Positions 22,762-64,000 of a stretch of 64,000 nucleotides of DNA are shown here, piece by piece. Numbering within the stretch: position 1 is the first letter of the stretch; every line of letters starts with the position of its first letter. The DNA is taken from contig NC_086108.1 in NCBI RefSeq assembly GCF_963921235.1, forward strand, positions 41,604,001 to 41,668,000, in the 5' to 3' direction. A program made the translations under genes and the position numbers. Below the pieces are notes generated by a model. It ran no database searches. It saw only the letters and a list, made by a program, of their open reading frames with translations, and was not told the DNA's origin. Source of the DNA: Mobula hypostoma (Eukaryota).

Positions 22762-23840
22762 TAATTGCCATCAAATAGCACAATAAGGTTTCTGTGCAAT
22801 ATAATAACTTGAAAGAACAAAATATATCCAAAATTAAATCTAATTCAGATTATTGACTGCCGACTACTGCAGCAAAGCTTCAGAAGGTGAGTTTTGGTTC
22901 TTGAGAAACAAAACTAAATCTGCCTAACTCCAGTGATAACAATATATTCAGAAAAATTTCACAGGCTGGTGTGAGCTCCACTTCAGTCAGTCTTATGATT
23001 TCTTTCCTTTTTCTTCCTTTATCTCTTTCCCTCTCCCCCTTTCCTCCCTCCCTCCCTCCCTCTCCTCTCTCTCCTCTTTTATACATGTTTGCCTAATTTC
23101 TCCTGCATGCCATCCCTCCTACTCCTCCTGCAATCATGACCAGAATAAGAGCATGGCTTAAATCGGTGATTCCCAAAGTGGGAGTTTCTAAAGCAGCAAT
23201 GAAAATAAAGGGGATGGTGGTGTGTGGCACTCGGTAGCAAGAGCAGAAGTTGAAGGAGTACAGACTTAATTTAAGAAATTAATTATTTATTATAAATATT
23301 TGATCCCCAGTGTCTCATAATTGATTACGATGATCACATGGTCGCCTCATCACTTGCTAACTAACTGTTCTCTTAAATTTGCTTGAAGCACATTATAGTT
23401 TCTGAAAAGCAACATGACACTTCTGTATTCGTGATATCATGAGAAATCTGGACTAGAGAAAATGTGTTATTTCCCGGCCCGCGCATTATTGCCATTTACT
23501 ACGTAGTACAATGTTAGCTGGTACAATTCCTCTACTCGAATCATGCAATGACTCAGTTTCTGTGAATTAGGCTATAGCATTCAATGGGGTATAGTTCAGA
23601 ATCTGCCCTTTCAAATGGTCTTGACCAAATTTCTCTGGCCTATGGCACAACTGAAATATTGTGGCCCCACTTTACGTACCTTCAGGCAGAGTTAGGTTTT
23701 GGCTGATCTGTGATGATGTCATAATTTTCTCCTTTATTGACCACAGTGCTTGAGCTTGGACTTAAAATAGGCTATTGATCATGGTCACTAATCCACAACG
23801 AAAAGAGTGAAAGCAGACCAAACAAGAGAAGTGTAGGCAG

Positions 23841-24197
23841 CACACATAAAAATTGCTGGTGAATGCAGCAGGCCAGGCAGCATCTATAGGAACAGGTACA
23901 GTCGACGTTTCGGGCCGGGACCCTTCATCAGGACTAACTTAAAGAAGACTAATTCCGCTAGTTGGAGCTGAGTGGTGGTAGAGGGGAACTGGTTAGGTTT
24001 GGAATAAATTATAGATGGGGAGCAGTGAGAGATGGTTTCACTAAACTCCCGTCGAAGAGAAGATTTAAACTTCTTTAGCATAGGCATCACCAGAAGAGGC
24101 TCTACAGTAGTGAATTTAAAAACGCAAACACGAGGAAATCTGCAGATGCTGGAATTTCAAGCAACACACATAAAAATTGCTGGTGAATGCAATTTTT
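23841..24197 (-). mobile_element. Internally deleted Penelope-like element (family A) nested in the hAT transposase gene
   Basis: 27-bp terminal direct repeat CACACATAAAAATTGCTGGTGAATGCA (23841-23867, 24165-24191); pseudo-LTR matches 62271-62404; flanked by 14-bp duplication AGAAGTGTAGGCAG (23827-23840, 24198-24211). Confidence 0.85.
23899..23936 (-). ncRNA. Minimal type I hammerhead ribozyme motif (Penelope-associated), core intact
   Basis: Minus strand: UAGUC-CUGAUGA-A-GGGU-CCCG-GCCC-GAAAC-GUC/GACUG; stem I UAGUC/GACUG, stem II GGGU/GCCC, palindromic ACGU in place of stem III. Confidence 0.8.
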
Positions 24198-31407: not shown

Positions 31408-32588
31408 GAGTCATAGGCTTATAGTAGACATCAGTAGATAAACTAAAGGTGTAACCATGGGCACCTGTATGGGTCCCAGCTATGCCTGCCTGTTTGTTGG
31501 CTTTGTGGAACAATCTATGTTCCAAACCTATTCTGATATCTGTCCCCCACTTTCCCTTCGCTACATTGATGACTGCATTGGCGCTGCTTCCTGCACGCAT
31601 GCTGAGCTCGTTGACTTCATTAACTTTGCCTCCACCTTTCACCCTGCCCTCAAGTTTACCTGGTCCATTTCTGACACCTCCCTCCCCTTTCTAGATCTTT
31701 CTGTCTCTGTCTCTGGAGACAGCTTATCTACTGATGTCTACTATAAGCCTACTGACTCTCATAGCTATCTGGACTATTCCTCTTCTCACCCTGTCTCTTG
31801 CAAAAATGCCATCCCCTTCTCGCAATTCCTCCGTCTCCGCCGTATCTGCTCTCAGGATGAGGCTTTTCATTCCAGGACGAAGGAGATGTCCTCCTTTTTT
31901 AAAGAAAAGGGCTTCCCTTCCTCCACCATCAACTCTGCTCTCAACACATCTCCCCCATTTCACACACATCTGCTGTCACTCCATCCTCCCGCCACCCCAC
32001 TAGGAATAGGATTCCCCTTGTCCTCACCTACCACCACACCAGCCTCTGGTCCAACATATAATTCTCCGTAACTACCGCCACCTCCAACGGGATCCCACCA
32101 CCAAGCACATCTTTCCCTCACCACCACCCCCCCGCTTTCCGCAGGGATCGCTCCCTACAGGACTCCTTTGTCCATTCGTCCCCTCCATCCCTCCCCACTG
32201 ATCTCCCTCCTGGCACTTATCCTTTTAAGTGGAACAAGTGCTACATATGCCCTTACACTTCCTCCCTCACTACCATTCAGGGCCCCAGACAGTCCTTCCA
32301 GCTGAGGCGACACTTCACCTGTGAGTCGGCTGGGGTGATATACTGCATCCGGTGCTCCCGATGCGGCCTTCAACATATTGGCGAGACCCGATGCAGACTT
32401 GGAGATCGTTTCGCTGAACACCTACGCTTTGTCCGCCAGAGAAAGCAGGATCTCCCAGTGGCCACACATTTTAATTCCACGTCCCATTCCCATTCTGAAT
32501 TGTCTATCCACGGCCTCTTCTACTGTCAAGATGAAGCCACACTCAGGTTGGAGGAACAACACCTTGTATTCCGTCTGGGTAGCCTCCG
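31408..32588 (+). mobile_element. Penelope-like retroelement (family A) fragment: RT C-terminal half + GIY-YIG endonuclease
   Basis: ORF 31457-32071 has MGTCMGPSYACLF, LRYIDDC, LPFLDL, YYKPTDSHSYL, IPFSQFLRLRRICS; ORF 32335-32655 has IYCIRC..C...IGET...R..EH. Frameshifted; 3' pseudo-LTR absent. Confidence 0.92.
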
Positions 32589-34690
32589 ACCTGCACACCT
32601 CTCTCCTCAAGACTCTAGTTATGAGAGATCTGAATTCTTTTATGTCCTTTATTAAAATTATTCATGGATATAAAAATAGTTAGCTAGTCAACACTGATTT
32701 GGAAGGAAACTGCTTTTCACAGATGGACTAAAATGTTGTGCTTCTCCTATCAATAATAACAAAAAACACTATCTGGCATATTTTACATTTAATTTTTATT
32801 GAATGAATTTTTTCTCCTCTCACATTCCAAGTATGTTTATTCTTTACCATCTTTTAGACATCCGCAGGCCATGTAGAAACTAGTAAGAGGATAAGCAGGA
32901 GAAATAATCTTAGGCCACAGGCAACACTGAAAGGGGATTTGGAACTATTTCTTTTGCTTCTTTGCCCCTAACCACTACTCAATCCATGAGTTTCTGAGAA
33001 ATCTTTGTCAGTATAGTTTATACTGGTTATGTCTGTTGAGTGCAGTGAAATTTATGGCACCAATATCCATACTTCTATTATAGTATCACAATGTGTAATC
33101 ATTGTTTATATCGTACACCAGAGGTATTCTGCACTTCTATCCCAATCAAGAAAACTAACACTGAATAAATCTATTTTACAGTGCTTTGAGGTATATAGCC
33201 TATCAAAAAGTTCAGTAAATATGGGTACTTGAAAGATAATAAGTGGCAAATATATACTGTATATAGAGAGAGTGCCTGACTGGATTGCTCCATTAAAGAC
33301 CTAGTGCAGATTAAATGAGCTGAATTGCCTTCTCCTGTACTGTGCTGGACATGATTCTACAACAGATCTGTGCTAACAGTCACGCTACACGTGAGCTGCT
33401 TCCTGTCTTAACATTATCCAGTCCATTCTGTATATCTTTAAATACCCTTAATCCATATTAATCTATCCTGCCCTTAAATTCATGTATGATTTTCATTTCA
33501 ATCACTCTATATGGTGTAAATTTCATGACAAACCTTCATGGTCATTATTAACTATATACATATTTAACTATGACTAAGATTACTGTTTCTGCGAGTGTTC
33601 CTAGTTATGATTACTTCAACCAGTGCTTGAGATATTACCAAACATGGATACTGAGCATCCTTGTTACGTTGCCTCACACTTAACAGAGCCACATTGTAAA
33701 CCTGGTTAAGAGTGAGTGACGCCACAGGAGGTCACATTCAATTACTTGTAACTGATTCTAACACTAAGCCCACTCTGCCTGAAGCACTCAGGTAGCATCA
33801 TTAACATACTTTTCAGCACAATTAAATTGATATAATTTGATTGACGCCTTTGGGTGATAGTTTCACTGACATAATTATTTATACTGATCCATTGTAGGAA
33901 AAAGAGCTAGAACCATCGAAAATTCTCCAGGCTTGCAGTTAAAACTAAAGATTCTACTCATCATATTTACTCAATAAAAAATTCCAGTCTGCCTTGTTTT
34001 TAATTGCAAATCCTGCTCCAGGGACTGGCTCACTTGCTTAAGAGGCAGCAATGTTCCATTCACCACTGAACATTCTGCAGTCAATTATGGTAATGAATTG
34101 TCAATAAATATAAAAATTTAATATAGTCGGCTCTGAGTGAGTGGCAGATATGGACTTGCCTCACAGACAAATTTGCTACTGCTGCAAATATTAAGTGCAC
34201 CTGAAAGAGCTGCTGGCAAGCTGACAAGTCTGTAAGGACCTACAGCACAGCTTAGGGAGTTAAAGAAGCCCCTAGGTAGGTTCCACGTGATGCCATCTCA
34301 CTATGCACTTTGAGTCATCATCTACCTGAACACTACAAAATACTTCACAGTTTTTGGATCAAAGGCCTAAACCAAGAATAAATTAAAGGATACTTCAGAA
34401 TTTTTTAGGCAACACCATTTTCTAGTGAGCTTCTGCTTTGCTGCATACTTGTTGTTGATTGCTTGGATTAAATAAGGGTTGTGGGAAACCATCACATTAG
34501 ATGGGTTGGCTTTGGTCTGTATCCTTTATTAATCTGTTTTCCATTGTTAAACCACAAAGCTCACAAGCAAGCACTTATCTCCTGGCTTAGAAGTTAAACC
34601 GCATTTTATTATCGATGTGATCACATCTTAAGTTGAAGCAGGGAATATAAAAATTATTCGTTGGAATAAAATTGCCATAATAAATTATAA

Positions 34691-39236: not shown

Positions 39237-39547
39237 GGGACAACCCTTCCCAACACCAGCCAATCAAAATCTCACTTCTTGTCTGAGCGTTCCAGTGATA
39301 AGGCATTCTGGCAAAGGACAAATGCTCCTGTAAGGCCTCAAGGGCATTCTGTGCAGACTTCTGCCAGACTGACTGTCTAAGGGTATTTGTTTACACAAGC
39401 ATTTCTACAAGCGATGTGTAGCATGCAACAGAATAGAATATTTTATAAAGTGTGGCCAAACACATTCTTCACATTACCTTAGCATTTAGTGCTTTCACAT
39501 CTGGGGTCTAAACGTAGATGTATCTGCATACCAAAGCAATCATCAAG

Positions 39548-39643
39548 TCAGGACGAAGGGTCTCGGCCCGAAACGTCGACTATACCTCCTCCTATAGATG
39601 CTGCCTGGCCTGCTGTGTTCAACAGCATTTTTTGTGTGTGTTG
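39548..39643 (+). mobile_element. Short Penelope family A pseudo-LTR insert with truncated hammerhead
   Basis: GACGAAGGGTCTCGGCCCGAAACGTCGAC...ATAGATGCTGCCTGGCCTGCTG; flanked by CATCAAG (39541-39547, 39644-39650). Confidence 0.8.
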
Positions 39644-42155
39644 CATCAAGATAAAGGGATGTGTGGGAGTGCACCAACACATTTTTCTTTGATCTGTGCT
39701 GCACCCAACAGGAAATTCTGACAAAGTTGTGTTTCCCAGGTTTACGATCATTAATGAGCAGCACAGGAAGGTGAACTATGGTGATGTTGGCTTGGATTAG
39801 TAGAGAGACTTTAACAGAGTATCCCACAGACACGATGGTCATGCAGTATAAGATTAGCTTGAAGAGAGAAATCCATAGCTGAATATGACTGTGCTGCTTC
39901 TCCAAGGTCCCGATTGTCCCCAGAGCTCAGCTCCCCTGCAGTGGAGGAGGCAACTTTGTTTGGGGGAAATTCTGCTTCTTTTGTTTCGAGATTGTGGCTC
40001 CCGGCATTCTGGAGCTAAATGCCTTGCTCTTCATTGTTGCCATTTCCCAGAACTGGGTCTGTCATTGCTGTTGGTCTGAGTACCTTTGGCCCTGTCTCAG
40101 CTATGCCTTCCTTGTCAATAGTGTGTTAGCAGTATCACCCATTTCTCCTCACACTTTCCTGTTTGATTCTCTGTCTTAAACCTCAGAAATCATTAACCTC
40201 CCAAGGTGGGGATTCCAGATGCCTATTACTGCCCTTGACTACTTTGAATATTGGTACCTTTGGGTCTGCAAGCTTTTGTTTAATTTTGGCCATCCCAGCT
40301 GTGGATGGCTTTCCCCGTCCTCCACGTCCTCTAGACTGAGTTCAGTGGTAACTTTCAGGTGTTCACACTCAATGCCGGCACATTGCTCTGTATCCCCCTC
40401 CACCAGTGTATATTCCTCCTTGACATGGGCACACATCATGTGAAGTGACAGTGGCTGCTGGAGTTCTGTTCGCCTTTCGAGCAAGTATGGCTAACATCCT
40501 TTCCTCCTGTCCCTGTGTCTCCTCCTGTCTCCATGGCTGAGTATAGCTGTGCTAGTGTCATATGCCATGGCAACTGGACAAGTTCATGCCAAACAAGATT
40601 CTCATCTGACCTAGTCTCATTTGCCCACATTGGCCTATATCCCTTTAAGCCTTTCTTATCCATCTACCTATCCAAGTGCCTTTTTAATGTTAATGTGCCT
40701 GCCTCAGCACTTCATTGAGTTGCTCGTTCTCCATGTAGACCCCCCTCCAGTGAAAAAGTTATCCCTCAGCTTCCTTATAACTCCTGTGAAATTGGACTGA
40801 TTTTTAAGAGGTGACCTGTCTTCCTACCCAGGTTGCTATATCTAGCTTTCGTCCTGTAACTTGGCAGACCTAGGGCTTTACAGGTGGTCATTTTGTGCCC
40901 AGGTTTGCTGTACTCTGGGCTGTCCCAGGTGTACCTCATGCCCATAGCTCATGCCCGTTGAGAAGCATCATGACTGTAAATGATGTTTCCAGTCTTAATC
41001 TTCAGCTTTATCTAATTACCCTTTATGCTAGACCAGCCGCCATGCATGTCTTAAACATGAGCACCTCCATAACGGGTATCCAGAGGCTCAACATATTTGA
41101 TCAGGTTTTACTCCTTCTTTTGTGGGATGCTGAGGGAGGATTGTACTGTGTATCGTACCAAGGTGTTTCTTGTCAAAAACACTGATACCCTTCCACTTTG
41201 CTGAAGTACTTGCTCCCTGAGAAGTCTTAGGGGACAAAGATCTCCTCAGATCTGAACCCACTCGCCTTGCAGCTTCTTCATAAAAATGCGTCAGTCCCAT
41301 GGCACATTGGAGTTTGCAAACATCATGCGCAATCACATAATGTCTCCACAGTCTGTGCCCTAGTGGTCAAATAGTCTGATAGACGTGGCTCCTGGCTGTG
41401 ACAAAAACTTACTTTAGTGAAAGATTGCAGAATAAACGAAGAATTAAATTTCTAGTCTAGAAAGGCTTTTCACTCATTCCCCATTCATTATCCACACTGG
41501 ATGGAAAGCAGATAAGAGAAATGACTAGGTATTGATCCAATCCATCTACACATTCTTTACTTAATCAAATATTTAGGTGGAATACTGATGTGCATCTGGC
41601 GTAGAAGCAATGTAGAATGAGGTCTCAGCAGTCCATCAGCATCTGTTGTCTACTTCATCTTAAATAGACATTGTTATAAAATAGAAATCAAAAGCATATG
41701 AAAGATAAAGCATATATCATCAAACTTGAGTATCAGTAACTGTGCAGTGTCATCTGCAGTTGGCAAGCATAAGCTTCGAGATGATTTGCCAAGGAACTGT
41801 GCCTGCAGAATATTAACACAAGATCCAATGATTTGCAAGAGGATTCATGATATCTCAAACTTTGGTGATTCATTGTTCATGCAACAGTTCTTTTTAATTT
41901 CAACTCCATTCATAGTATGTGGCCTTTGCTTGTAAAGTCAGCATCTATTGCCAATCCTTAATTCTTCTGAAAAGCAATCTCAGATGACAATTAGGTCACC
42001 ATAATGATGGGTCTGGAGTTACATTATATAAGCCAAAGCATGCAGAAATGGAACACTAGGCAATTTCCTTTCCTAAAGGAGACTGGCGAGCCAGGTAGTT
42101 TTTTTGTTCAACAACCTGTTGTTTTCCATTCACTATTATTGATGCCAGTTGTCTT

Positions 42156-42617
42156 ATAGAAACATAGCAACATAGAAAACCCACAGCACAATACAGGCCC
42201 TTCGGCCCACAAAGCTGTGCCAAACATGTCCTTACCTTAGAACTACCTAGGCTTACCCATAGCCCTCTATTTTTCTAAGCTCCATGTACCTATCCAGGAG
42301 TCTCTTAAAAGTCCCTATTATTTCTGCCTCCACCATCGTCACCAGCAGCCCATTCCATGCACTCACACTCTCTGTGTAAAAAACTTACCCCTGACACCTC
42401 CTCTGTACCTACTTCCAAGCACCTTAAAACTATGCCCTCGCATACTAGCCATTTCAGCCCTGGGAAAAAGTCTCTGACTATCCACACGATCAATGCCTCT
42501 CATTATCTTGTACACCTCTATCAGGTCACCTCTCATCCTCCGTCGCTCCAAGGAGAAAAGGCCGAGTTCACTCAACCTATTCTCATAAGGCATGCTCCCC
42601 AATCCAGGCAACATCCT
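42156..42617 (-). mobile_element. CR1 LINE 3' end (another subfamily)
   Basis: RMLPGL...YENRL..LGLFSLERRRMRGDLIEVYKIMRG...FFTQRV; (CTATGTTT)n tail. Confidence 0.88.
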
Positions 42618-45600
42618 ATTTTTATTTAAATACTTGAATTTAATTTGGCCACTACTGTGGTGGTAATTGAACCTGTGACTCCAGTAAATTGTCCAGTCCT
42701 CCAGATACCAGTTCAATAATTTATCTGATTGTAAACATGACTCTGGTGTCAGTGTCATTATCATTTTTCATCACTGTATAAGCAATAATGTATAAACATT
42801 TTATTAATAAAATGTATTAATGCACTTTATCCTAGTACCATATAACACCACAATAGTATCACATAGATTACTTCATTAATAGTCTGTTTAACAAGTGGTT
42901 TATATACATATGTGTGCAAATGTTCCTGAATCCTGTAAAATAATCAGTGCTGTTAATTAAAAAAGGCTCCACAGACAGCAATCGCAGAAATAAGTATCTT
43001 GGATTGCTTTAGCGCTTTGCTCCTTATGCTTGCCAGCTGCATCTACCCTGCACAGTTACTGATATTTAAATCAGGAAACATATCCTGTGATATGCCACAA
43101 AATAAACCATAAAGAAATGTGGTAACTTTATTCTACAAATGTAAATTCATATCTGTTTTGAAAGAAACTGAATGTATTGCTGAATAATATCAAAGTACAT
43201 GGGCTCTGCAAGTTACCAAAACTATTCAATCCTCTTCCAGCAATCTTATTAGAGTTGAAGTAAGCTGCAAAATAAAACTTGCTTGGTACGTGGTTCATGA
43301 ACATTTGGGGAGATGAGTACCACATATTGTTTTTTGTCCCTCTAAATTCTGTGATGGAAGAAATGCATCCAGGTCAGGGGAAGATTAATTAATTGAAATT
43401 GTGCATAAAAGTGTTAAAACAAAGGAGGCAAATCACTGAGTTAGGCTTTGAATATCATCTGCTGTGGTGAATGGTTGGACTGCAGACCAGCATCAATTTG
43501 GGCGAGCTCTGACAGAGTGAGGTTTCATTCAATAGGTAGCAGGGCAGGATAACTAAGCGCAGTATTTCATGTAATTCAGGTAAAGTGACTTTTTCATGGA
43601 CTGGTCAATGATTGGTCATAGGCCAATGCACACACCTGACAGACTGCATGTGCAGGATAAATGCCTTAAGTTTTAAAGGTCATTTGCTCTTGCACTGAAT
43701 GATAAATATTTATGTCAGAAGCACAGCGTTCTCTGCCATATTATTGATGGCACAGATTTACCTTTTAACAAGACTGCTTATAGTGAAGGCATCGACTTTA
43801 GCTTATCATCCACATTGTAAATATGCATATGATGTGAGGGATGTGCTGAAACATGAACTGCAGGTGTTTTGTTATTTGGTCTAATTATGGTTTACAAAAT
43901 AGTTTGCATTCATATACTGCATTTCCATGGAGAATTCATCACATCACAACAATTTAAATAAATGTAGCTGCGGTGCTCAGCGCACAATGTAGTTAACTGT
44001 GTCCTCTTTCTGTTAAATCAGTCATGCACCTATTGTTGGCTGTGTCAGAAAGTGTTACACTGATTCTGGCATCCACTTAGTAGTATTGCATAACAAGGAT
44101 TGACAATGCAAAGTTATAGAAATAAATAGAATTTTAAAGTACATTAAGATTTAAGCTGCAAGGTTCATCATCCATCTTATTTCTACTAACTCCATAAGAT
44201 GGATTACCAGTTGTTTCATGAATGCATCTGTGACATTAGCTTCAGCTCCACAATCTCTCCACTCTTGAGTAAAGACTTTTCTCCTGAAATCCTCATGTAT
44301 TGGTGAAAGTATTTCTGACTCTTAGTTTTGGGATCCCTGCAGGTATGAAATTTCAAGGCATGAAGGACCAGTAAGTCAGTTGCAAACTTGCTGCTGAATT
44401 AAGCATATTTTAAATCTAAAAGCAATAAGTAAAAACTGTTTATTTCTTGATTGTGACTACCATGGAAACCACACTGAAGAGGTCGCCTTCATGTGTGAAT
44501 GCTAGACAAATCTATCAAAACTTAATTCTGCTTTTATATCTTACACTTTCAGTGTCACTTAGCTGTGTTTTTGCACACAGAAGGCTGCTGAAATTTGTTT
44601 CAGAATACATTCTTTGGAAATATCAGTATTTTTCCTCATGTCTTGTACTCAATATTTAAATTCTATTAATTAAGAAATTACTGGAGATCTGTATAAGAGA
44701 CATTTTATTTTCAAACTGTGAAGGTTATGTTTCAAATACATATCCTATTACTGTGTTCTTTAAGTACCACACGATTCCACTCCCTTTACTACAAAACCTC
44801 TGATTAACAGCCATCAGCTATGTGGCTGGACTCCAAGTGGATGTAAATTATTTAGATGCATCTCATATTTTTTTTATTCATTACCATGATATGGGCAAGG
44901 TCAGCATGTATCACTCATCCCTAACTGCTCTGGCGGAGTGATAGTGAGTATATTTTTTTGAACCGATGCATTTTATGTGCTCCCTCAAAATCAAGGTGTG
45001 GAGATCTGGATTTTGACCCAGCGGATTGAAGGAATTGGCAAGAGGAGTGTTACATTTCTAACTCAGGATGCTATGTAGGGGTGCCAAATTTGAAAATGGT
45101 GCCTTCCTATACACTTGCTGTCCTTAGCCTTCTAGTTGTTAGATTCAGGAGCTGCTTTCAAAGGTCTATCCACACCCCAAACTACACACCACTTATGGTG
45201 GAAGGAGGGAATGTTTCAAGTGGTAGAATAAGTGTTAATTTAAAGCACTTTATTTTTACCTGGGTGGTATTGACTTTCTTGACTGCAGCAAATGACAATC
45301 CATTCTCTGGAGCTGTGCCTTAACCTGATAGAGGGTCTCAACCCTCTCCACCCCCTGTATAAATGTTGTTTGACCCACTGAATTCCTCCCGCAGTCTGCT
45401 CTTTCTATTCTGGAAGGCTTTGAAGAGAGGGGAGGCGAGTCACAAACTGCCCAGGCCCTGGCAGCCACTTCATTCATATGGTTTTAAGGCTCCATTTTTT
45501 TTTTGGTGATGATTAAGGGGTTGTGGTTTAGCTTTCTCAGTTGGAGATGGCCATTGCTTGGCCCTTGTAACCATTGTGCTTACATTGTTTCTCTGAGCAC

Positions 45601-45714
45601 TAGCACCTGTAAAGCGGATACCATGGACAAACATTGCCATTTTGACCTTTACACTGGACAGGTTCCGTCATTGTTGAAAATAATGATGTTTATAAAATTA
45701 CTGTTTGTGGCCCA

Positions 45715-46020
45715 GTGGCATGGCAGTTAGTGTAAAACAATTACAGCACTAATGACCCGGGTTCTATTACACCACTGTCTATAAGAAATTCTTATGTTCT
45801 CCTCATGACCACAGGGGTTTCTTCCAGGTACTCCGGTGTTCTTCCATGTAGGATGTACGGATTAGAGTTAGTAAGTTGTGAGCATGCTATGATACTGCTG
45901 GAAACGGGGCAACACTTGTGGGCTGCCCCAGCACATCCTTGGATGTGCTGGTTGTTGACACAAACAACACATTTCACTGTATGTTTCGATGTTTCAATGT
46001 ACATGTAAAAATAAAACAAA
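45715..46020 (+). mobile_element. HE1/V-SINE-like element
   Basis: gtggcatggcagttag, gacccgggttctatt, gggtttcttccaggtactccggtg; 3' part is the reverse complement of 14600-14720. Confidence 0.6.
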
Positions 46021-46418
46021 TCTGTCCTTAATCAATATCTCTTTTCATTGATTGCTTAATTGGCAACTTCCAGATATAGCAGGACGACAATAATAATCTC
46101 CTCTGTTGCCTGTGGGATCCTTCAGCACTTAGCACTCACCTGTTGGGTGCTGCATCTGCAGTCTAATACACATGTAAAACAATCAGCAAACTCATTTTCA
46201 GGTATATTGGAGGACCTCCTTTCATCCACTTCTAGTCTCCTTATTGAACTAGAGATGGTTCCATAACCAGATGGTAATAGTATAATGAGGAAAATAACAG
46301 ATTAAAAGGTTACAAGTTAGGCGGAATAACTTAATCATTATTATGTAATTGTTGGGTAGTAGGGTGGAGATATGTCTCTACCAAAGGAGATGTAAGGCGC
46401 TCGTTCCCTCCGCAAGTT

Positions 46419-46703
46419 GGCATGTGGCCAAGTGGTTAAGATGTTTGTCTAATGATCTGAAGGTCGCTAGTTCAAGCCTTGGCTGAGGCAGCGTGTTGTG
46501 TCCTTGAGCAAGGCTCTTAACCACACATTGGTCTGCCAGGCTGTATGGGTCCTAATGCCCTTCCCTTGGACAACATCGGTGGCATGGAGAGGGGAGACTT
46601 GCAGCATGGGCAACTGTCAGTCTTCCATACAACCTTGCCCAGGCCTGTGCCCTGGAAACCTTCCAAGGTGCAAACCCATGGTCTCACGAGACTAATGGAT
46701 GCC
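46419..46703 (+). mobile_element. tRNA-derived SINE, same family as 121-425
   Basis: GGCATGTGGCCAAGTGGTTAAG...AGTTCAAGCC...GTGTCCTTGAGCAAGGC...CCATGGTCTCACGAGACTAATGGATGCC. Confidence 0.82.
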
Positions 46704-46719
46704 TATCACTATACGGTCT

Positions 46720-48835
46720 CATAATCTTATAAACCTCTATCAAATCTCCCCTCAGTTTTCGTCACTCCAGATAAAACAACACAAGTTTGTGCAACCTCTC
46801 ATTGCAGCACGTGCCCTCTAACCAGGCCTCATCCTGGTAAGACTCTTTTGCACCTTCTCCAAACCCTCGACATCCTTCCTATAATGGGGTGACTGGAACT
46901 GTATGCAATACTCCAGATGCAGCCTAAATAGGGGTTTATAAGCTGCAACATAACTTCCTGACTTTTAAAATTAATGCCTGAACTAATAAAGGTAAGCATG
47001 TTACATACAGCCTTAACCATCCTATCCACCTATGTAGCCACTTTCAGGCAGCTATGAAATTATACCCCAAGATCCATCTGCTCATCAGCAGTGATAAAGG
47101 TCTTGCCCTTAAGAGTGTACAGTACCTTTGCATTTGACCTACCAAAGTCCAGGATTATCTCTGGTTCTCTTCTTGAACAACATTAGCCACTCACCATTCC
47201 TCCGGGACCTCACCTGTGATTAGAGAGCACATGAAGATATTGGTCAAGGCCCCAGCAATCTCCTGCCTCTCTCAACAACCTGGTGCATATCCCATCATGC
47301 CCTGGGGACTTATCCACCTTAATGCTCTTTAAGAGACCAAACACTACTTCCTGCTTTACCTCAAAATACCCTAGCTTATTAATACTCTCAGCAATAATTT
47401 CCCTATCCTCCACATCCTTTTTGGTAAATACTGATGTAAAGTACTAATTATGGACCTCACTCACATGCTCTGCTTCCAACCAAATGTTCCCCCTTTATCC
47501 TAGAGTGGTCCTACCAGCTGCCTAGTTTTCCCTTAGTTATTCTCTTGCTCTTGATGTTTATATAGAATGCATTGGAATTCTCTTTAATCCTACTTGCCAA
47601 GGACTTTCCATGGCCCCTCCTGGCTTTCCTAATTCTCTTATTGAGTTCTTTTCTGGTGCCCTTATAATCCTCAAGGACTTTGTTTGATACTTTATACTTT
47701 ATTGTCGCCAAACAATTGATACTAGAATGTACAATCATCATAGCGATATTTGATTCTGCGCTTCCCACTCCCTGGATTACAAATCGATAGTAAATATTAA
47801 AATTTTAAATTATAAATCATAAATAGAAAATATAAAAATTGGAAGTAAGGTAGTTCAAAAAAACTGAGATGCGGGTCCGGATATTTGGAGGGTACAACCC
47901 AGATCCGGGTCAGGATCCGTTCAGCAGTCTTATCACAGTTGGAAAGAAGCTGTTCCCAAATCTGGCTGTACAAGTCTTCAAGCTCCTGAGCCTTCTCCCA
48001 GAGGGAAGGGGGAAGAAAAGTGTGTTGGCTGGGTGGGTCATGACCTTGATTATCCTGGCAGCACTGCTCTGACAGCGTGCAGTGTAAAGTGAGTCCAAGG
48101 ACGGAAGATTGGTTTGTGTGATGTGCTGCGCCGTGTTCACAATCTTCTGCAGCTTCTTCCGGTCTTGATTTCTAGCTTCCTATGCTTTACATACTTTTCA
48201 TTTTTCTTCTGGACTAAATTCATCACATCTACCGACATCCTCTTACCTTGCCATTCTTGTCGTTCCTTCTGACTGGAACTTACCTGTCCTGTACTCTGTG
48301 CATTTGTTCCTTAAACACCCTCCATGTGTCAGATGTGGACTTGCCCAAAAACAACTGTTCCCAATTAACTATCCCTTGTTCCTGCCTAATACTCCCATAG
48401 TTCACCTTGCTCCAACATACTATTCTCCCTCAAGGTCCATACTTAGCCTATCTATAGCTGTCTTAAAACTTAAGGAGTTGTTGTCACTGTTCCCTAACTG
48501 CTCACCTGCTGAAAAGTTGGTCACCTGTCCAAGCTCAATACCCAACACCAAATACAGTACAGCCCTTCCTCTTGTTGGGCTATCTACATATTGATTTAAG
48601 AACTCCCCCCAACCCGGATAAACCTGACAACTTCTGCCCCATCTGAACCCCTTGCTCTCAGAAGGTCCCGGTTTATATTAGGGAAGTTGAAATTCCACAT
48701 GACAACAACCCTATTGTTTTTACACTTTTCCTTAATCTGCCTGAAAATCTGTTCAACGTCCCAGTGGTTTTTGGGAGGGGTCTGTAGTATGATCTCATCA
48801 GAGAGTTTGCATCCTTCTTATTTTTGAGTTCTACC
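46720..48835 (-). mobile_element. Decayed CR1 LINE (endonuclease to RT region, with deletions), interrupted at 47686-48164
   Basis: Minus-strand KVDKSPGHDG, RKARRGH.KSLASRIKEN.NAFY, WVELKNKK...YYRP motifs. Confidence 0.75.
47686..48164 (-). mobile_element. Rex1/Babar-like LINE 3' end nested in CR1
   Basis: ORF 47910-48140(-): NLPSLDSLY...THPANTLFFPLPSGRRLRS...FGNSFFPTVIRLLN; 3' end GACAATAAAG plus (TATAAAG)n. Confidence 0.82.
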
Positions 48836-49289
48836 CAAAATACAGTATTGTGCAAAAGTCTATACAGCTAGGGTGCCTGAGACTTTCGCATTGTACTGTA
48901 GTTATTTAATGTATTGCATTGTACTGCTGCTACAAAAAAACAAACCCTGACTCTGATATGGGTCTCTAATATGGACTGAGAGTGGGAAGGCGGTAGGGGG
49001 TGGGGAAACATGGTTGGGAAAAAGGGAAGGGAGAGGGGAGGGAGCAGGAAGCACCAGAGAGAGATTCTGTAATGATCAATAAACTAATTATTTGGAATTA
49101 TATGACGTTGCCTGGTGTCTCAGGGCTAGGTATGTCTGAAAACGCACCCGCCCACCCCTAGCACTCCTTCTCTGCCAGCTGTCCCACACCCCTCCCACGG
49201 CACTCCACCATCGCCATTTCCAACGTACTTCACTCCCACCAGATTTACAAACTCTCTCTCTGCTTCATGTTGACAAATACAGCGATGTG

Positions 49290-49510
49290 CAGTACTGTGT
49301 CTGCACTCCGAGTGTGACCACCTCACTAAAAGTTTCATCAGAGGTACTTTCAGCATCTCAAATGGTCCTGAGTACTTCCAGCACCAGCTCCAGTTCCTTG
49401 ACTTTGTCAGTCAGGACCTGAACCTGGATGCACTTCCTGAAGATGTTGTCATCAGGGAGACCATTAGGTACCCTGCAATCCTACATCTTACTGTAGGGGT
49501 ATTCCATTGC
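49290..49510 (-). mobile_element. CR1 ORF1 N-terminal remnant
   Basis: Minus strand reads about PDDNIFRKCIQVQVLTDKVKELELVL, resembling the CR1 ORF1 zinc-finger/leucine-zipper region; colinear with 46720-48835. Confidence 0.5.
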
Positions 49511-50364
49511 CTTAACCACCATCCTCTACCTTTGTCAATTCTCAAGCTTAAGTTCTAGTCTCTGCCTGTTGTCACCAGAGCCCATTGAACCAAACTCTGA
49601 CCACATAAACCTCACTTCTTTTTATTGACCCTTGCTAGGTTACCAATAACCCAAGCAATCTCCCACTCCACAGACAAGTCCTTACAGGCCCCATTCACTT
49701 TTTAAATGGGTGCATAAACATCACAAGGAGCTGTCCCCAACTCATTCTGTGATCTCAAGGTCCACATACAAGTCCCAACAGACTCTATTCGCTTTTTAAA
49801 GTTGATGTGTAGGGTCAACAAGCAGCTCTCTAGCGTTCATGGGTTCATGGACTGTTCAGAAGTCCGATGGTAGAGAGGGTGGAGCTGTTCCTACAACATT
49901 GGCTGTGGTCTTCCTTGATGGTGGTATTGAGAAGAGGGCATATCCTAGATGGTGAGGATGCCATCTTCAATCTTTTAAAGATGTTCTTTGCCGCCACTAA
50001 ACAAGTTTCACAACATATGTCAGTGATAATAAACCTGATTCTGATTTATCTCCAGCTGCTTTTCCAATTTGAAAACCATGTCCTACTCTCACTCAGACTC
50101 CACTAAGCTGATCTTTGTTGTGGCCGTTGATAACCCATCCTGTAATCCTGCTTCTGCCAAGAATCGTGCAAAAAATGGAGCACTAATCAATCCACCAAGA
50201 GAAAATGGTAGTTGGTAATCATAAGGGAATTATCTCATACATATTAAGCCTCCCAGGGCTACCGACAAATAAAATGCAACTATTTTACAGTGACACTATG
50301 CTTTTTGCTCCCTCATTTCACTTATAAGAATTCTTCAATTCAGTCAGTTTTATTATTGGTTGGT

Positions 50365-50720
50365 GGATACCACCCACCCAGGAATTCTCTCTTCCCTCCC
50401 CTCCCATCGGGCAAAAGATACAAAAACCTGAAGGCAAGTACCACCATGTTGAAGGACAGTTTCTATCACATTGTTACGAGACTTTTGAACAGACCTTTTG
50501 TATGATAGGATGAACTCTTGACCTCTCAGTATGCCTTGTTATGATCTTTATGTTTACCTGCACTACATTTTATTTGTAGCTTTAACACAGTTCTCCATTG
50601 TTATTATTCTCCTCAGTGCACCGTGAAATGATTTAATCTGTATGAACAGTGTACAAGACAAGCAGTTCACTGTTTTTTGGTACATGTAACAATTATAAAC
50701 TAATACCAATATCAATACCA
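50365..50720 (+). mobile_element. Rex1/Babar-like LINE 3' end
   Basis: HPPRNSLFPPLPSGKRYKNLKASTTMLKDSFY..VTRLLN, followed by a 3' UTR ending in (ATACCA)n. Confidence 0.7.
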
Positions 50721-50836
50721 AAGGATGGCAGTGGTGCACTTCAACTACCATCAATCTACATCGGAAAAACCTATCATTAATGTTTTCACTCTGCAGATTT
50801 ACTGATGACTTTGGAACCCATTCATTATTTTTCTGT

Positions 50837-51033
50837 CAACACACATAGAAGTTTCTGGGGAGCGCAGCAGGCCAGGCAGCATCTATAGGAAGAGGTACAA
50901 TCGACGTTTCGGGCCGAGACCCTTCGTCCTGACTGTACCTCTTTCTATAGATGCTGCCTGGCCTGCTGCGCTCCCCAGCAACTTTTATGTGTGTTGCTTG
51001 ATATTCCAGCATCTGCAGATTTCCTCGTGTTTG
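50837..51033. mobile_element. Fold-back (inverted) Penelope family A pseudo-LTR insert
   Basis: Left arm is the reverse complement of the right arm, with the junction at ...CTTCGTC-CT-GACTGTACC (50922-50939); 14-bp duplication CATTATTTTTCTGT (50823-50836, 51034-51047). Confidence 0.88.
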
Positions 51034-51375
51034 CATTATTTTTCTGTTATAGTTTGAATCAACTTAATGGTCAGCCAGGCCATTTTGGAGTTAATCGCAC
51101 AGCTTTTTTTACATAGTCCAGGCTGGATAAAGACAGCCTATTTCCTTTTCCAAAGGACATTAGTGACCAGCTGGGTTTCTACAACAATCTAGTAATTTCA
51201 AGAATACATTTTTTGATGCTAGGTGTTTAATTCTAGATAATTTCATTAATCTTATTTAAACTTCTTAATAGCCCTGCTCTTGCCCCAGCATAACTTGCCC
51301 CTCTGGGGATATCGCAGGCTGTGTAAACCCTTGTGCTTCCAAAGTTGTAATCCATCTGGCAGATATTTACAATAA

Positions 51376-51583
51376 CAACAGGAATTCTGCAGATGCTGGA
51401 AATTCAAGCAACACACATCAAAGTTGCTGGTGAACGCAGCAGGCCAGGCAGCATCTCTAGGAAGAGGTACAGTCGACGTTTCAGGCCAAGGTCCTTCGTC
51501 CTGAAGAAGGGTCTCGGCCTGAAACATCAACTGTACCTCTTCCTAGAGATGCTGCCTGGCCTACTGTGTTCACCAGCAACTTT
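51376..51583. mobile_element. Second fold-back Penelope family A pseudo-LTR insert
   Basis: Arms inverted about ...CTTCGTC-CTGAAGAAGGG (about 51494-51511); 14-bp duplication GATATTTACAATAA (51362-51375, 51584-51597). Confidence 0.88.
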
Positions 51584-54500
51584 GATATTTACAATAATAT
51601 GGGAAAGGCCACAGTTTTTTCCCCTCCACCATCAGATTTTTGAATGGACCATGAAACCATGAACACTACCTCACATTTTGCTCCCTTTTGGCTCTACTTA
51701 TTTTTTATATTTTTTATTGCAACTTATAGTAATTTTTTAGGTATTGCACTGTACTGCTGCCAAAAAACAACAAATTTTATGACATATCAGTGATAATGAA
51801 CCTGATTCTGAACTACTGGAAGATGCAAGCCAAGCTACTGGTCGTTAAGGGACTGCAAAAGAAGGCAGGTGACTATCCATAATTGCCTCTTTGCAGATCC
51901 CATGTACAAGGCAATACTACTCTGTCAGAGCGGAGAATGCAGGTCCTGCTCTGTTGGTAGGGCTCCTTATGAATTGCCCGTGATGCAGAAGAAATTCCCA
52001 GGATGATTAGTGGATCTCTCATTTTTTCATGTTTGATTAACGAAGAGAAGCTGAATATCCTTATCCTTGCTGAGCAATTCATTGCACTAACTGGCCTGGA
52101 TATGGAATTAACTGAAGTGCTGTGTTTGAGAGTGTTTGCTCTTAGCAGGGAGGCAATTATCGCTCTGTGCATTATTCAACAGGTAGGTATGCAGAAAATT
52201 ACAGATGTCAGCAACAAGACGCAGTGTATATGTTTTATAGGCTCACTTCTATCATCCTCACTAAAACCAAGGTTATGTTACCAAGCTCCTTAAGAATGTT
52301 TTGCTGATCCGTAAATGATTGCCTGCTTTATAACATTTCATGGATGAGAATGTTGTGGATAAAATAACTTCTCACTCTGGTTGCTTCCATTTAATGGGGA
52401 TGTTATTGGGATAAGTAGGGCTCTACTGTTACTTGAACAAATGCAGGAGGTATGTGCTAGGTTCACCTCTGTGCTGCTAAATGGTGCAACTTCTTTCATA
52501 TAGCACATGGAAAGCCAACAGAAGATTTGTACAGGCTTCCAGAAAAATTAACATCTGTAAAGCTAAAATGAAAAGTTGGCCAAAAGCTTTACTCTTTGTT
52601 CATCCACTTTCCTCAGAAGAATATGGACATCCGCATTGTTTACATGTGGAAGTTTTATAGGCACCATGCTATGTTTGATAAAGGCCACAGAGGATTAGTG
52701 CGTTAAAGTATCGAACATTCAGTGAGGTATTGCAATTGTGAATCCCAGACCTCATACATGTATAAATGTGTTGTGTGTAAAGTCCAGCCTTGCCTCTGTT
52801 ATCCCTTGACAAAGTGGAAGTTCTCAAAGTGACAGGTTCCAAGCTTTGCATAAGAACACGAGAAGTAGGAGCAGAAGTTAACCATCAAGCTTCCAAACTT
52901 GTTCCAATGTCTGTCAAACTTGTGCAAAATCTTCTGCCTCAGTGCCTTTTTCCAGCACTAACAATTTCCTTAACATCAAAACTTTGGTCTGAGGTTATTG
53001 TTCTGACCTGACAGAAAGAAAATAAAATCCCCTTTCATGAAGCTGTTTAAAATGCACACTGAGAGCTGACCAATATTAATCAAGGAGACAAACTCATTTG
53101 TTTCAAAGGAATGCAATACACCAACATGGTTGGTCTCAGGAATGGAAAATAAATTCAGTTAAGACCACATATCAGAGAAATTGTTAATATTGATTGTGAC
53201 ATTCTCAGAATTAGATTGTGTGAAAAGACTTTGTAATAGCAAGTCATATTCCTCCCTGTGGATAATTGTAGAATTATTATCCATTTAGTGTGGCAAGGCT
53301 GCGGTTCTAATACTACAATACAAACTACATGGTTTTGTCGTGAGCTTTGAGGGCACAGCATGTTGATAGAGCAAATTATATTTTTTGGATGATTTAATCT
53401 TAACCACTTTTTAGACAAAATCTACCCAGAATTAAATAATGGTCAGATTTGTTGGTTCAACAGTTATTTCATAGCATGTGTTATTCAAATACGATTTTTT
53501 TCAAATGTCCAGTTTTTGGAGTTTGCTTTGACTATGCTTGCAAATTATTGAGGCCGTGATCTGCAGTGGAATGACATTTGGGGCAAAGGACAGTGAGTAA
53601 TGCATTGATGCTGCCAACAAACGCTTCTGGGTGGTCATCTGGTGTGAACTTGGGAGAAGGTTGGCACAATCAATCAACATGAGGATGGTAGGATGAACTA
53701 TTAGAGGTGATTACTGGTAGGAAAGTGTAAAACATTATATTTGAGGCCTGTTTGAAATGCGAATAATAGACAGAATTACTTATATGTGAATGTTTTATAT
53801 TAACATTGGGAGAGAAAAATTAGTTGATTTGAGCATGCAATCCAAATCAATATGCAGTACACATGAGCTACACAGTTATTTTCATATGGCAACCATCTAT
53901 CAAAATGGAAAGGCACAGAACCTTTGGTTTGAAAGAAACATATTTGCCTTACTACGTGACTTTGCAAATCACACACTGGTTGCATGCGAACAATATACTG
54001 TACTCGTGAAATGAGCTGGGAAAATCCGATCAGATGACATCTTTGACCTTGTTTTAGTTCCTGGTCAGGGAAGCTAAAAGTAAATGCAAGTTAATAGAGT
54101 TTTAATCCAGTACATGCGCAGCTTTAATGGGTAAAACAGTTAGGGCTTGTGTTAATGGAACTTGGCAGAGGAGATAAGCGACGATTTGTCACTGGCTGCA
54201 TTTGACTGGGTGCCTGTAAAATGAAGTGCCAATAAAGAGGAGTTTAGACATTACTTGACCCATGTTCTCTTTACTCAGCAGCTTGTCTTTACACTGAACA
54301 CAATCTGAAACAAGCACCAAGTGACTGGCACCACATTACAATCACTGTCAAGCCTTAGATAAATGTAGTTCATTTAAAAATGAAGGGTTTATCAATGGGC
54401 AAATAATTGCTGAGCACTATTGATTCCCTGCATCTCACTCAGCCTGGGACATCAGGGTTTGCTGAAATGGTAAACATTTAATCAGCATGCATGTCAAACA

Positions 54501-62270: not shown

Positions 62271-63438
62271 AACAACAGGAATTCTGCAGATGCTGGAAAT
62301 TCAAGCAACATACATCAAAGTTGCTGGTGAACGCAGCAGGCCAGGCAGCATCTGTAGGAAGAGGTACAGTCGACGTTTCAGGCCGAGACCCTTCGTCAGG
62401 ACTAACTGAAGAAAGAGTGAGTAAGGGATTTGAAAGCTGGAGGGGGAGGGGGAGATGCAAAATGCTAGGAGAAGACAGGAGGGGGAGGGATGGAGCCAAG
62501 AGCTGGACAGGTGATTGGCAAAAGGGGATACGAGAGGATCATGGGACAGGAGGTCTGGGAAGAAAGACAAGCCGGGGGGGGGGTGACCCAGAGGATGGGC
62601 AAGAGGTATATTCAGAGGGACAGAGGGAGAAAAAGGAGAGTGAGAGAAAGAATGTGTGCATAAAAATAAATAACAGATGGGGTACAAGGGGGAGGTGGGG
62701 CCTTAGCGGAAGTTAGAGAAGTCGATGTTCATGCCATCAGGTTGGAGGCTACCCAGACGGAATATAAGGTGTTGTTCCTCCAACCTGAGTGTGGCTTCAT
62801 CTTTACAGTAGAGGAGGCCGTGGATAGACATGTCAGAATGGGAATAGGATGTGGAATTAAAATGTGTGGCCACTGGGAGATCCTGCTTTCTCTGGCGGAC
62901 AGAGCGTAGATGTTCAGCAAAGCGGTCTCCCGTCTGCGTCGGGTCTCGCCAATATATAAAAGGCCACATCGGGAGCACCGGACGCAGTATATCACCCCAG
63001 TCGACTCACGGGTGAAGTGTTGCCTCACCTGGAAGGACTGTTTGGGGCCCTGAATGGTGGTAAGGGAGGAAGTGTAAGGGCATGTGCAGCACTTGTTCCG
63101 CTTACACGGATAAGTGCCAGGAGGGGGAGATCAGTGGGGAGGGATGGGGGGGGACGAATGGACAAGGGAGTTGCATAGGGAGCAATCCCTGCGGAATGCA
63201 GGGGGGGGGGAGGGAAAGATGTGCTTAGTGGTGGGATCCCGTTGGAGGTGGCGGAAGTTACGGAGAATAATATGTTGGACCCGGAGGCTGGTGGGGTGGT
63301 AGGTGAGGACCAGGGGAATCCTATTCTTAGTGGGGTGGCGGGAGGATGGAGTGAGAGCAGATGTACGTGAAGTGGGGGAGATGCGTTTAAGAGCAGAGTT
63401 GATAGTGGAGGAAGGGAAGCCCCTTTCTTTAAAAAAGG
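62271..63438 (-). mobile_element. Penelope-like retroelement (family A), 5'-truncated, with GIY-YIG region and 3' pseudo-LTR
   Basis: Minus-strand FFKERGFP...RIPLVLTYHP...VIYCVRCSRCGLLYIGET...EQHLIFRLGSLQPDGMN; near-identical to 31893-32588; flanked by GGCCTTTATCAT (62257-62268, 63439-63450). Confidence 0.92.
62367..62404 (-). ncRNA. Minimal type I hammerhead ribozyme motif (Penelope-associated), core intact
   Basis: Minus strand: UAGUC-CUGACGA-A-GGGU-CUCG-GCCU-GAAAC-GUC/GACUG. Confidence 0.8.
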
Positions 63439-64000
63439 GGCCTTTATCATATGTAGTGTCCCCAATTGTTTTTTGAGGCAAAGTGAAAGAAAAGGGCTAA
63501 TGGTTCATCCTCAGGATGAGCCTAAGGTGAATTAGCCATTTGGCATTTCTGGCTGAAGATGATTCTGACTACTTTGCATTTGGCACTTGACAGCATGTGC
63601 AATGCTCCACTATCATTAACAATAAGAATATTCTTAAAGCTAATCTGTTGTTTTGATAATTATTAGATTATCTAAATTTCAGGGCATATAAACCTAGTTT
63701 AGATATTCCTCTTATTAATTTAACCTTTCAATTCCAGATATCTACCTATCCATATGTCTTGAGCAAAACTCAATATGTAGCTTTCTATCCAACCAACCAA
63801 ATCTTCTGTAAGTAGGATGAAAAACTAAGGGTCCAGCACAAACATTTATTTGAAGCAACTGGTCACACTGTGCCACATAGAACACCTGCTCATGGTTGTT
63901 TAATATCTGCTAATAATCCCTGATGAGGGACTTTAACAGATGACTTCTGGAAGCTCATGAAAGCAACTTCCATTGACATTACATGGTCCATGCCTTTATC

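What the first reader, a model, noticed from the sequence alone, without database searches (positions are those of the whole stretch)
39541..51597. Fold-back Penelope mini-inserts invert at the same site of the hammerhead ribozyme in three separate insertions
Seen: the uninverted pseudo-LTR reads AGTC-CT-GACGAAGGG (62404 to 62389, minus strand). GTC-CT-GAC is a micro-palindrome formed by the 5' strand of ribozyme stem I and the start of the catalytic core. Three inserts with different flanking duplications switch strand exactly here: 51376-51583 (...CTTCGTC|CTGAAGAAGGG), 50837-51033 (...CTTCGTC|CTGACTGTACC) and 39548-39643 (GTC-AG-GACGAAGGG, the same flip with only a stub). Established: Penelope-like elements often have inverted 5' pseudo-LTR pieces and carry hammerheads. 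Inference: the inversion is a reproducible template switch or snap-back fixed by the ribozyme sequence, yielding about 200-bp palindromic non-coding units that may be a mobile family in their own right. I do not know of a description of such a fixed breakpoint.
Basis: partly seen in the sequence, partly recalled or inferred. Interest (0 to 1): 0.72.

Follow-up and report, generated by a model that had tools for sequence, protein, structure and literature searches.

The report
Penelope hairpins with favoured, unfixed junction

Summary
The three inserts are real and have their own target duplications. Only 51376-51583 has the clean GTC-CT-GAC junction; the other two keep the flipped loop but lack part or all of one arm. 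Genome-wide the exact junction occurs 505 times and leads among near-core fold-backs (17 of 50), yet it is only 3 of 86 inverted copies sampled by their 3' end (5 with derivatives). It is a hotspot, not a fixed breakpoint. The cause is a stop zone: arm 5' ends pile up at -8..+3, the ribozyme's 5' edge, not at its cut site. The hairpins are not a mobile family: arms match their partner, 28 copies carry 14 haplotypes, and the loop faces either way (15:13). Nearly all pair one arm ending at +127 with a shorter one, mostly ending near +92 (153 of 157; none long+long), like the two reverse-transcription starts shown in vitro for a lizard element. Best model: two cDNAs joined head to head, where GTCAGGAC ends pair with each other. 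The inverted-plus-tail anatomy is published; this scan reached the same reading on other DNA of this and other genomes.

The parts
51376..51500 (-). Insert C, long arm (+2 to about +127, with the ~35-nt tail)
51501..51502 (.). Insert C, 2-nt loop (CT on +, AG relative to the long arm) between GTC and GA(C/A)
51503..51583 (+). Insert C, short arm (+2 to about +85)
51362..51375 (.). Insert C target duplication, left copy (right copy 51584-51597), 14 bp
50837..50928 (-). Insert B, short arm (+2 to about +93)
50931..51033 (+). Insert B, long arm starting at +28 after the CT loop (50929-50930); ribozyme core and stem II missing on this arm
50823..50836 (.). Insert B target duplication, left copy (right copy 51034-51047), 14 bp
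39548..39643 (+). Insert A: stub with flipped loop (AG at 39550-39551) plus lone short arm to about +92; likely a fold-back that lost its long arm
   Evidence: loss of the arm is inference
39541..39547 (.). Insert A duplication, 7 bp (right copy 39644-39650)
62369..62404 (-). Minimal type I hammerhead motif of the uninverted copy: stem I 5' strand, core, stem II, GAAA, palindromic stem III, GTC cut triplet, stem I 3' strand
   Evidence: sequence; folds; no Rfam match at gathering score; cleavage not tested
62273..63496 (-). 5'-truncated Penelope-like copy: end of RT-EN linker, GIY-YIG region, pyrimidine-rich 3' region, ribozyme and tail
31442..32655 (+). Broken RT (YIDD motif) and GIY-YIG fragment of the same family
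23837..23948 (-). Lone short arm (-8 to about +94), uninverted; a separate tail-bearing piece lies at 24127-24191

Best explanation
Each hairpin is a one-off insertion of the 3' end of a Penelope-like retrotransposon, likely built when both cut ends of the target primed DNA copies of the same source RNA and the two copies were joined head to head. The element's GIY-YIG nuclease would make a staggered cut (13-15 bp duplication, shown). One end would prime at +127 and the other near +92 (arm ends shown; priming inferred). Both copies tend to stop at -8..+3, the 5' edge of the hammerhead (shown), most likely because a short RNA begins there (inferred). The two free 3' ends are then joined through whatever short complementarity they share. 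Ends that stop at -3/-4 both read GTCAGGAC, an imperfect palindrome that pairs with itself between molecules; the central mismatch would be resolved either way, giving CT or AG loops equally. The ribozyme sequence thus sets the favourite junction, but ribozyme cleavage does not.
For: 153 of 157 fold-backs are long+short and none long+long; 86 of 88 in junction-anchored loci. Lone copies also end at +80..+102 (30 of 46 partnerless arms, sample biased towards short), so about +92 is a start in its own right. Frangieh 2024 (PMC11167929, parts 1-2 of the text read) shows two RT start sites bounding the tail and cutting and extension of both strands. Loop 15 CT: 13 AG relative to the long arm. Short arm reaches further 5' in 40 of 79, long arm in 19. 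9 of 55 fold-backs have a symmetry centre with 0-2 nt loop, too tight for a snap-back. Among ends lying within the stop zone, the -4/-4 pair is the best-ranked duplex, -4.7 kcal/mol; the single-strand fold does not form the 2-nt loop. Arms come from one source: 63 of 788 diagnostic sites differ against 41.5% when shuffled; 18 shared rare variants against 1.24 (max 7 in 1000). 2 of 110 pairs differ at two or more non-CpG sites, which suggests two templates at times. Both arms pass or both stop at the zone: 17/2/5/55, Fisher p 5e-11.
Against: No RNA 5' end was seen: only contigs were available. No excess of cap-derived G before arm ends (8 of 34 against 9.4 expected). A hairpin opened by a nick near +92 predicts much of the same geometry. 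In vitro there was no strand preference between the two start sites, so the strict long+short pairing is not explained by that paper. 33 of 113 short-arm outer junctions have extra or mutated bases rather than a clean overlap. Stronger pairings exist for ends that reach -13/-14. The samples come mostly from one chromosome.
Confidence: 0.6

Rival explanations
1. One cDNA snaps back on itself, primes its own second strand, and the hairpin is opened by a nick near +92 on either strand, giving one long and one short arm.
For: Predicts identical arms, long+short pairing, both loop orientations and coupled arm lengths. Flipped-loop arms with a short stub joined straight to flank (about 8 of 100 by eye) look like an opened hairpin. 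Craig 2021 attributes the tail to nuclease resolution of an intermediate (passages).
Against: Needs 0-2 nt loops in 9 of 55 and for the modal junction; lone arms that start at +92 are common yet short+short fold-backs are 2 of 88; 2 of 110 pairs have arms of different subfamilies; the nick would have to coincide with a known kind of RT start.
Confidence: 0.2
2. Same two-cDNA joining, but the stop zone is a physical barrier (ribozyme stem I or bound protein) rather than the 5' end of a short RNA.
For: The mode (-5..-3; 16 partnerless arms) coincides with the 5' strand of stem I; 6 of 24 copies that run in from the ORF start also begin at -25..+8; no cap-G signal.
Against: Independent stalling does not predict that both arms share their fate (17/2/5/55); the stop lies where the enzyme leaves the structure, not where it meets it; an initiator-like TCAGTT lies at -10..-5 (sequence; motif recalled).
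Confidence: 0.12
3. Self-priming on an antisense transcript makes the head-to-head palindrome, as proposed for rotifer Penelope elements.
For: Arkhipova 2013 (PMC3846280, passages) reports palindromes at inverted junctions and proposes this; single template explains matching arms.
Against: Does not by itself give two fixed outer ends 35 nt apart, both loop orientations, or 0-2 nt loops.
Confidence: 0.05
4. The palindromes are a non-autonomous family amplified from one or a few master hairpins.
For: 505 exact junctions; a few derivative junctions recur letter for letter, for example four on one contig.
Against: 14 haplotypes in 28 copies, arms matching their partner, loop both ways; all 7 long-arm haplotypes at three sites also occur in long copies; dozens of other junctions.
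Confidence: 0.03

Closest known systems
Endonuclease-bearing Penelope-like elements with an inverted 5'-truncated copy and one-sided 30-40 bp tail (Craig 2021 PMC8557442; Arkhipova 2013 PMC3846280)
   Same: Head-to-head inverted pLTR piece, tail on one arm only, target duplication, hammerhead in the pLTR, RT plus C-terminal GIY-YIG.
   Different: The passages read give no junction spectrum, no stop zone at the ribozyme edge and no strict long+short rule; they propose nuclease resolution or antisense self-priming.
PAc (Poseidon of Anolis) in vitro, Frangieh 2024 PMC11167929
   Same: Two RT start sites downstream of the hammerhead that bound the tail; both strands cut and extended; cleavage by the ribozyme not needed.
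   Different: Different clade and host; no strand preference in vitro, whereas here one arm takes each site; inverted products were not addressed in the parts read.
LINE-1 twin priming and dual priming (Meyer 2010 PMC2837659, passages)
   Same: Both target strands prime cDNA; inverted piece inside a target duplication; short homologies at junctions.
   Different: L1 twin priming gives non-overlapping pieces with an internal deletion; here both arms copy the same ~90 nt and start at fixed element sites.
Minimal hammerheads of metazoan PLEs (Cervera and de la Pena 2014 PMC4209133, passages)
   Same: Short helix I, extra nucleotide after position 9, palindromic helix III region, predicted to work as a dimer.
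   Different: Activity not tested here; stem II is short (4 bp by prediction).
Non-LTR retrozymes (bioRxiv 10.64898/2026.07.22.740005, first part and passages)
   Same: Non-coding, hammerhead-bearing, derived from PLE pLTRs.
   Different: Retrozymes are head-to-tail tandem units treated as mobile; these are head-to-head, dispersed and not amplified from a master.

Membership tests
EN+ Penelope-like element | Single ORF with RT and C-terminal GIY-YIG | tested here: met
   974-aa open frame in L322 ending in the same 3' region; RVT_1 E 7.5e-5 and GIY-YIG E 1e-3, both below Pfam's curated cut-offs
EN+ Penelope-like element | pLTR formed by partial tandem, running into the ORF start | tested here: met
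   L324 has a truncated copy upstream that continues into a 906-aa frame; 376 pLTR-ORF junction matches
EN+ Penelope-like element | Inverted 5'-truncated copy and 30-40 bp tail on one side | tested here: met
   86 of 178 copies inverted; 153 of 157 long+short
EN+ Penelope-like element | Hammerhead motif in the pLTR | tested here: met
   Core, stems I-II and GTC triplet in sequence; a two-copy cofold pairs across molecules, -25.5 kcal/mol; no Rfam hit
EN+ Penelope-like element | Ribozyme self-cleavage | not testable with these tools
   No assay; no clear pile-up of ends at +28
Neptune or Nematis clade | [quoted passage not shown] | tested here: met
   C-x4-C-x2-C motif before the GIY-YIG domain; criterion from Craig 2021
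Neptune clade | RT phylogeny | not tested
   No tree built; no reference PLE proteins in hand
Non-autonomous mobile palindrome (MITE- or SINE-like family) | Copies descend from a master with constant ends, junction and arm-specific variants | tested here: not met
Non-LTR retrozyme | Head-to-tail tandem hammerhead units | tested here: not met
   Units are head-to-head; of 30 exact-junction loci only L015 shows a multi-unit tandem, L002 and L013 short duplications

The most novel reading that the evidence does not exclude
Fold-back insertion is a regular step of Penelope-like transposition, not an accident: an enzyme dimer copies one short RNA twice, one subunit from each of the two start sites and each from its own target strand, both copies run off at the ribozyme's 5' edge, and the self-complementarity that the hammerhead needs (stem I strand plus core) doubles as the preferred joining site. 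Thousands of genomic junctions would then record the missing second-strand and joining step of this class.
Probability: 0.35. Interest if true: 0.65.

Novelty: new member of a known kind. Interest (0 to 1): 0.4.

Why it matters
How Penelope-like elements make their inverted ends is stated to be unresolved (Craig 2021), and the one in vitro system stops short of it (Frangieh 2024). This family has over 33,000 young 3' ends, about half of sampled copies inverted, so it gives sharp predictions: one arm per start site, shared fate of both arms, a stop zone at the ribozyme edge and a modal junction with a 50:50 loop. For annotation, such hairpins should not be filed as MITEs or as a new mobile ribozyme. 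The structure itself is ordinary for the class.

Tried and rejected
Rfam at gathering score: no match. Ribozyme cut site as the source of ends: partnerless arms show none at +25..+30 among 191 arms; in a sample chosen for ends at +23..+36, 12 of 41 lie at +27/+28 against 5.9 expected (p 0.01), but CpG decay and microhomology blur this, so inconclusive. Cap-derived G at arm ends: not seen (8 of 34, expected 9.4; inverted 15 of 41, expected 11.5). A ribozyme-deleted subfamily as source of insert B: only 4 sense-strand deletions genome-wide, against 12 B-type of the first 100 of 306. Loop flip as a replication error in resident copies: 1 of 100 listed flipped arms had element-like upstream sequence, by eye. 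The first -5..0 peak (35 of 268) was inflated by old subfamilies whose upstream differs from the reference; all later counts use anchored or at least 88-90% identical copies. Two regex hits (L088, L228) were dropped as false after reading. Assembly artefact: arms of C differ at 8 of 84 sites and sit in a target duplication; long reads were not available. Sequencing runs: no RNA holder listed; contigs of four runs cover the element but cannot show starts. PDB sequence search of the RT fragment gave nothing useful. Two scripts failed (second half) and one used a wrong offset; repeated.
Full report
Setting and coordinates. The window lies in a 3.48-Gb genome. Position 0 is the first C of the hammerhead core at window 62400 (minus strand); the predicted cut follows +27 and the element's usual 3' end is about +127. 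The family is a Penelope-like element: a copy elsewhere has a 974-aa open frame with weak RT and GIY-YIG matches, both under Pfam's cut-offs; a cysteine motif in the RT-EN linker points to the Neptune or Nematis type by the criterion in Craig 2021, without a tree. There are 33,436 exact matches to one 3'-end anchor and 2,667 to a second, but only 376 to a pLTR-ORF junction pattern.

The observation. Insert C is a true fold-back at GTC-CT-GA(C/A), with a long arm, a short arm and a 14-bp duplication. Insert B passes through the same GTC-CT but its long arm resumes at +28. Insert A is a lone short arm with the loop read AG, a 4-5 nt stub and a 7-bp duplication. So one of three is the clean junction and two are derivatives. 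Both derivative kinds recur: B-type is 12 of the first 100 of 306 related junctions (by eye), and of the first 100 of 903 flipped-loop arms about 63 are clean fold-backs and about 37 derivatives (by eye). The flip is tied to insertion junctions: 1 of 100 listed flipped arms lacking the inverted partner base had element-like upstream sequence, and sense-only loss of the ribozyme occurs 4 times.

Is the breakpoint fixed? No. The exact 20-mer occurs 505 times. Among fold-backs that keep both cores with a 0-12 nt loop (1592), it is 17 of the first 50 listed, ahead of a 6-nt loop at 9 of 50. In 178 copies picked only by an exact 3' anchor (107 and 71; mostly the first 82 Mb of one chromosome; not all listed hits were fetched), 86 are inverted and 3 have the exact junction, 5 with derivatives (interval 0.7-9.9% for 3 of 86). 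The first 100 hits of a core-anchored pattern show dozens of other junctions. It is the mode of a broad spectrum.

What makes the mode. Arm 5' ends concentrate at the ribozyme's 5' edge: 35 of 178 long arms end at -8..+3 (2.9 per base) against 0.07 per base at -300..-61 and 0.39 at +32..+90; 24 of 79 short arms end in the same 12 bases. Partnerless arms peak at -5..-3 (16 arms), so the stop does not depend on inversion. The cut site is not a clear peak, in line with Frangieh 2024, where ribozyme mutants inserted normally and no RNA ends mapped to the cut. Two cDNAs ending at -3/-4 both end in GTCAGGAC(T); this pair is the best-ranked predicted duplex among ends inside the stop zone (-4.7 kcal/mol), while stronger pairings need an end at -13/-14, and the single strand does not fold into the 2-nt loop. 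A heteroduplex with a central AG/AG mismatch would resolve to either loop, and the loop is CT in 15 and AG in 13 of 28 copies relative to the long arm. This step is inference.

A family of its own? No. In 114 arm pairs, 63 of 788 diagnostic sites differ, against 41.5% in shuffled pairs (minimum 34.9%), and 18 rare variants are shared within pairs against a mean of 1.24. The 28 exact-junction copies carry 14 haplotypes; all 7 of their three-site long-arm haplotypes also occur among 56 long copies. No two of 30 exact-junction loci share flank 20-mers, and 113 of 128 long+short copies gave a duplication of 9 bp or more, mode 13-15. Later gene conversion between arms could add to the matching but would not give both loop orientations and the subfamily spread.

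How the two arms arise. 153 of 157 fold-backs have one arm reaching +115 or beyond and one ending by +106; none is long+long; among junction-anchored loci it is 86 long+short and 2 short+short. Short-arm outer ends centre on +92..+96, where lone copies also end (30 of 46 partnerless arms, a sample depleted of long arms). This matches the two RT start sites that bound the tail in vitro, with both strands extended. The short arm reaches further 5' in 40 of 79 pairs, the long arm in 19; both arms pass -60 or both stop short of it in 72 of 79; 9 of 55 have 0-2 nt at the symmetry centre; 97 of 110 pairs agree at all non-CpG sites compared and 2 differ at two or more. At the short arm's outer end 61 of 80 clean junctions overlap the duplication by 1-6 bases, and 33 of 113 are not clean. 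I read this as twin priming of one source RNA followed by end joining (0.6). The serious rival is a snap-back hairpin opened near +92 (0.2), which explains the symmetry but not the tight centres, the rarity of short+short pairs or the mixed-subfamily pairs. Whether the stop zone is an RNA start or a barrier is open: shared fate favours an RNA end, but no cap-G signal was found, 6 of 24 copies running in from the ORF also begin at -25..+8, and no raw RNA reads were on offer.

Relation to what is known. The inverted truncated copy with a one-sided tail is standard for these elements (Craig 2021, passages; Arkhipova 2013, passages, which also notes palindromes at the junction and proposes antisense self-priming). 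Minimal dimer-type hammerheads in pLTRs are described (Cervera 2014, passages). Twin and dual priming are described for L1 (Meyer 2010, passages; a 2024 L1 preprint, passages). I found no paper giving a junction spectrum or a stop zone for Penelope-like elements in searches; the library lacks most subscription papers, and supplements were not read, which may bear on that claim (Fig. S2 of Frangieh 2024 in particular). The initiator-like motif and the hairpin loop limit are recalled, not from a call. After my own analysis, look-ups showed that this scan has reached much the same reading on other windows of this and other genomes; those notes are not independent evidence.

Verdict. Interest 0.4, for the testable constraints on an unresolved step.

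Noticed in passing
L008 (G000:C1:31891289-31894308), L112: Fold-backs whose two arms belong to different subfamilies (3 of 3 and 2 of 2 non-CpG sites differ): candidates for joining of cDNAs from two RNA molecules.
   Followed up: partly
G000:C5:94338197, 95363753, 95742036, 97599339; G000:C1:27999907, 28958668, 30295895: The same unusual derivative junction recurs letter for letter several times within a few Mb: probably segmental duplication or carriage inside a larger repeat.
   Followed up: no
window 62412-62403 minus (about -12..-3) and older subfamilies: A pyrimidine tract followed by AG sits just before stem I in young and old subfamilies; it could be a splice acceptor, as reported at the 5' end of helix I in D. 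virilis, or an initiator. No shared upstream exon was seen by eye in truncated copies.
   Followed up: partly
L276, L281: Perfect loop-free palindromes centred on the GTCGAC that spans the ribozyme cut site: a second, rarer self-pairing junction.
   Followed up: partly
L015, L002, L013, L110, L274: Junctions with short tandem or templated insertions copied from nearby ribozyme sequence, resembling synthesis-dependent end joining (mechanism recalled).
   Followed up: no
L322 (G000:C2:29360200-29366900), L336, L345, L352, L353: Large fold-backs: a near-full-length copy with a long inverted partner, and copies that run in from the ORF start, stop at +63..+101 and meet an inverted short-start arm.
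   Followed up: no
window 10834-12540: A separate large inverted repeat (three arm pairs of 96-209 nt, 78-82% complementary), unrelated to this family by the blast.
   Followed up: no
window 23837-24191: A lone short arm and, 180 bases away on the same strand, a tail-bearing piece; possibly one insertion interrupted or two neighbours.
   Followed up: no
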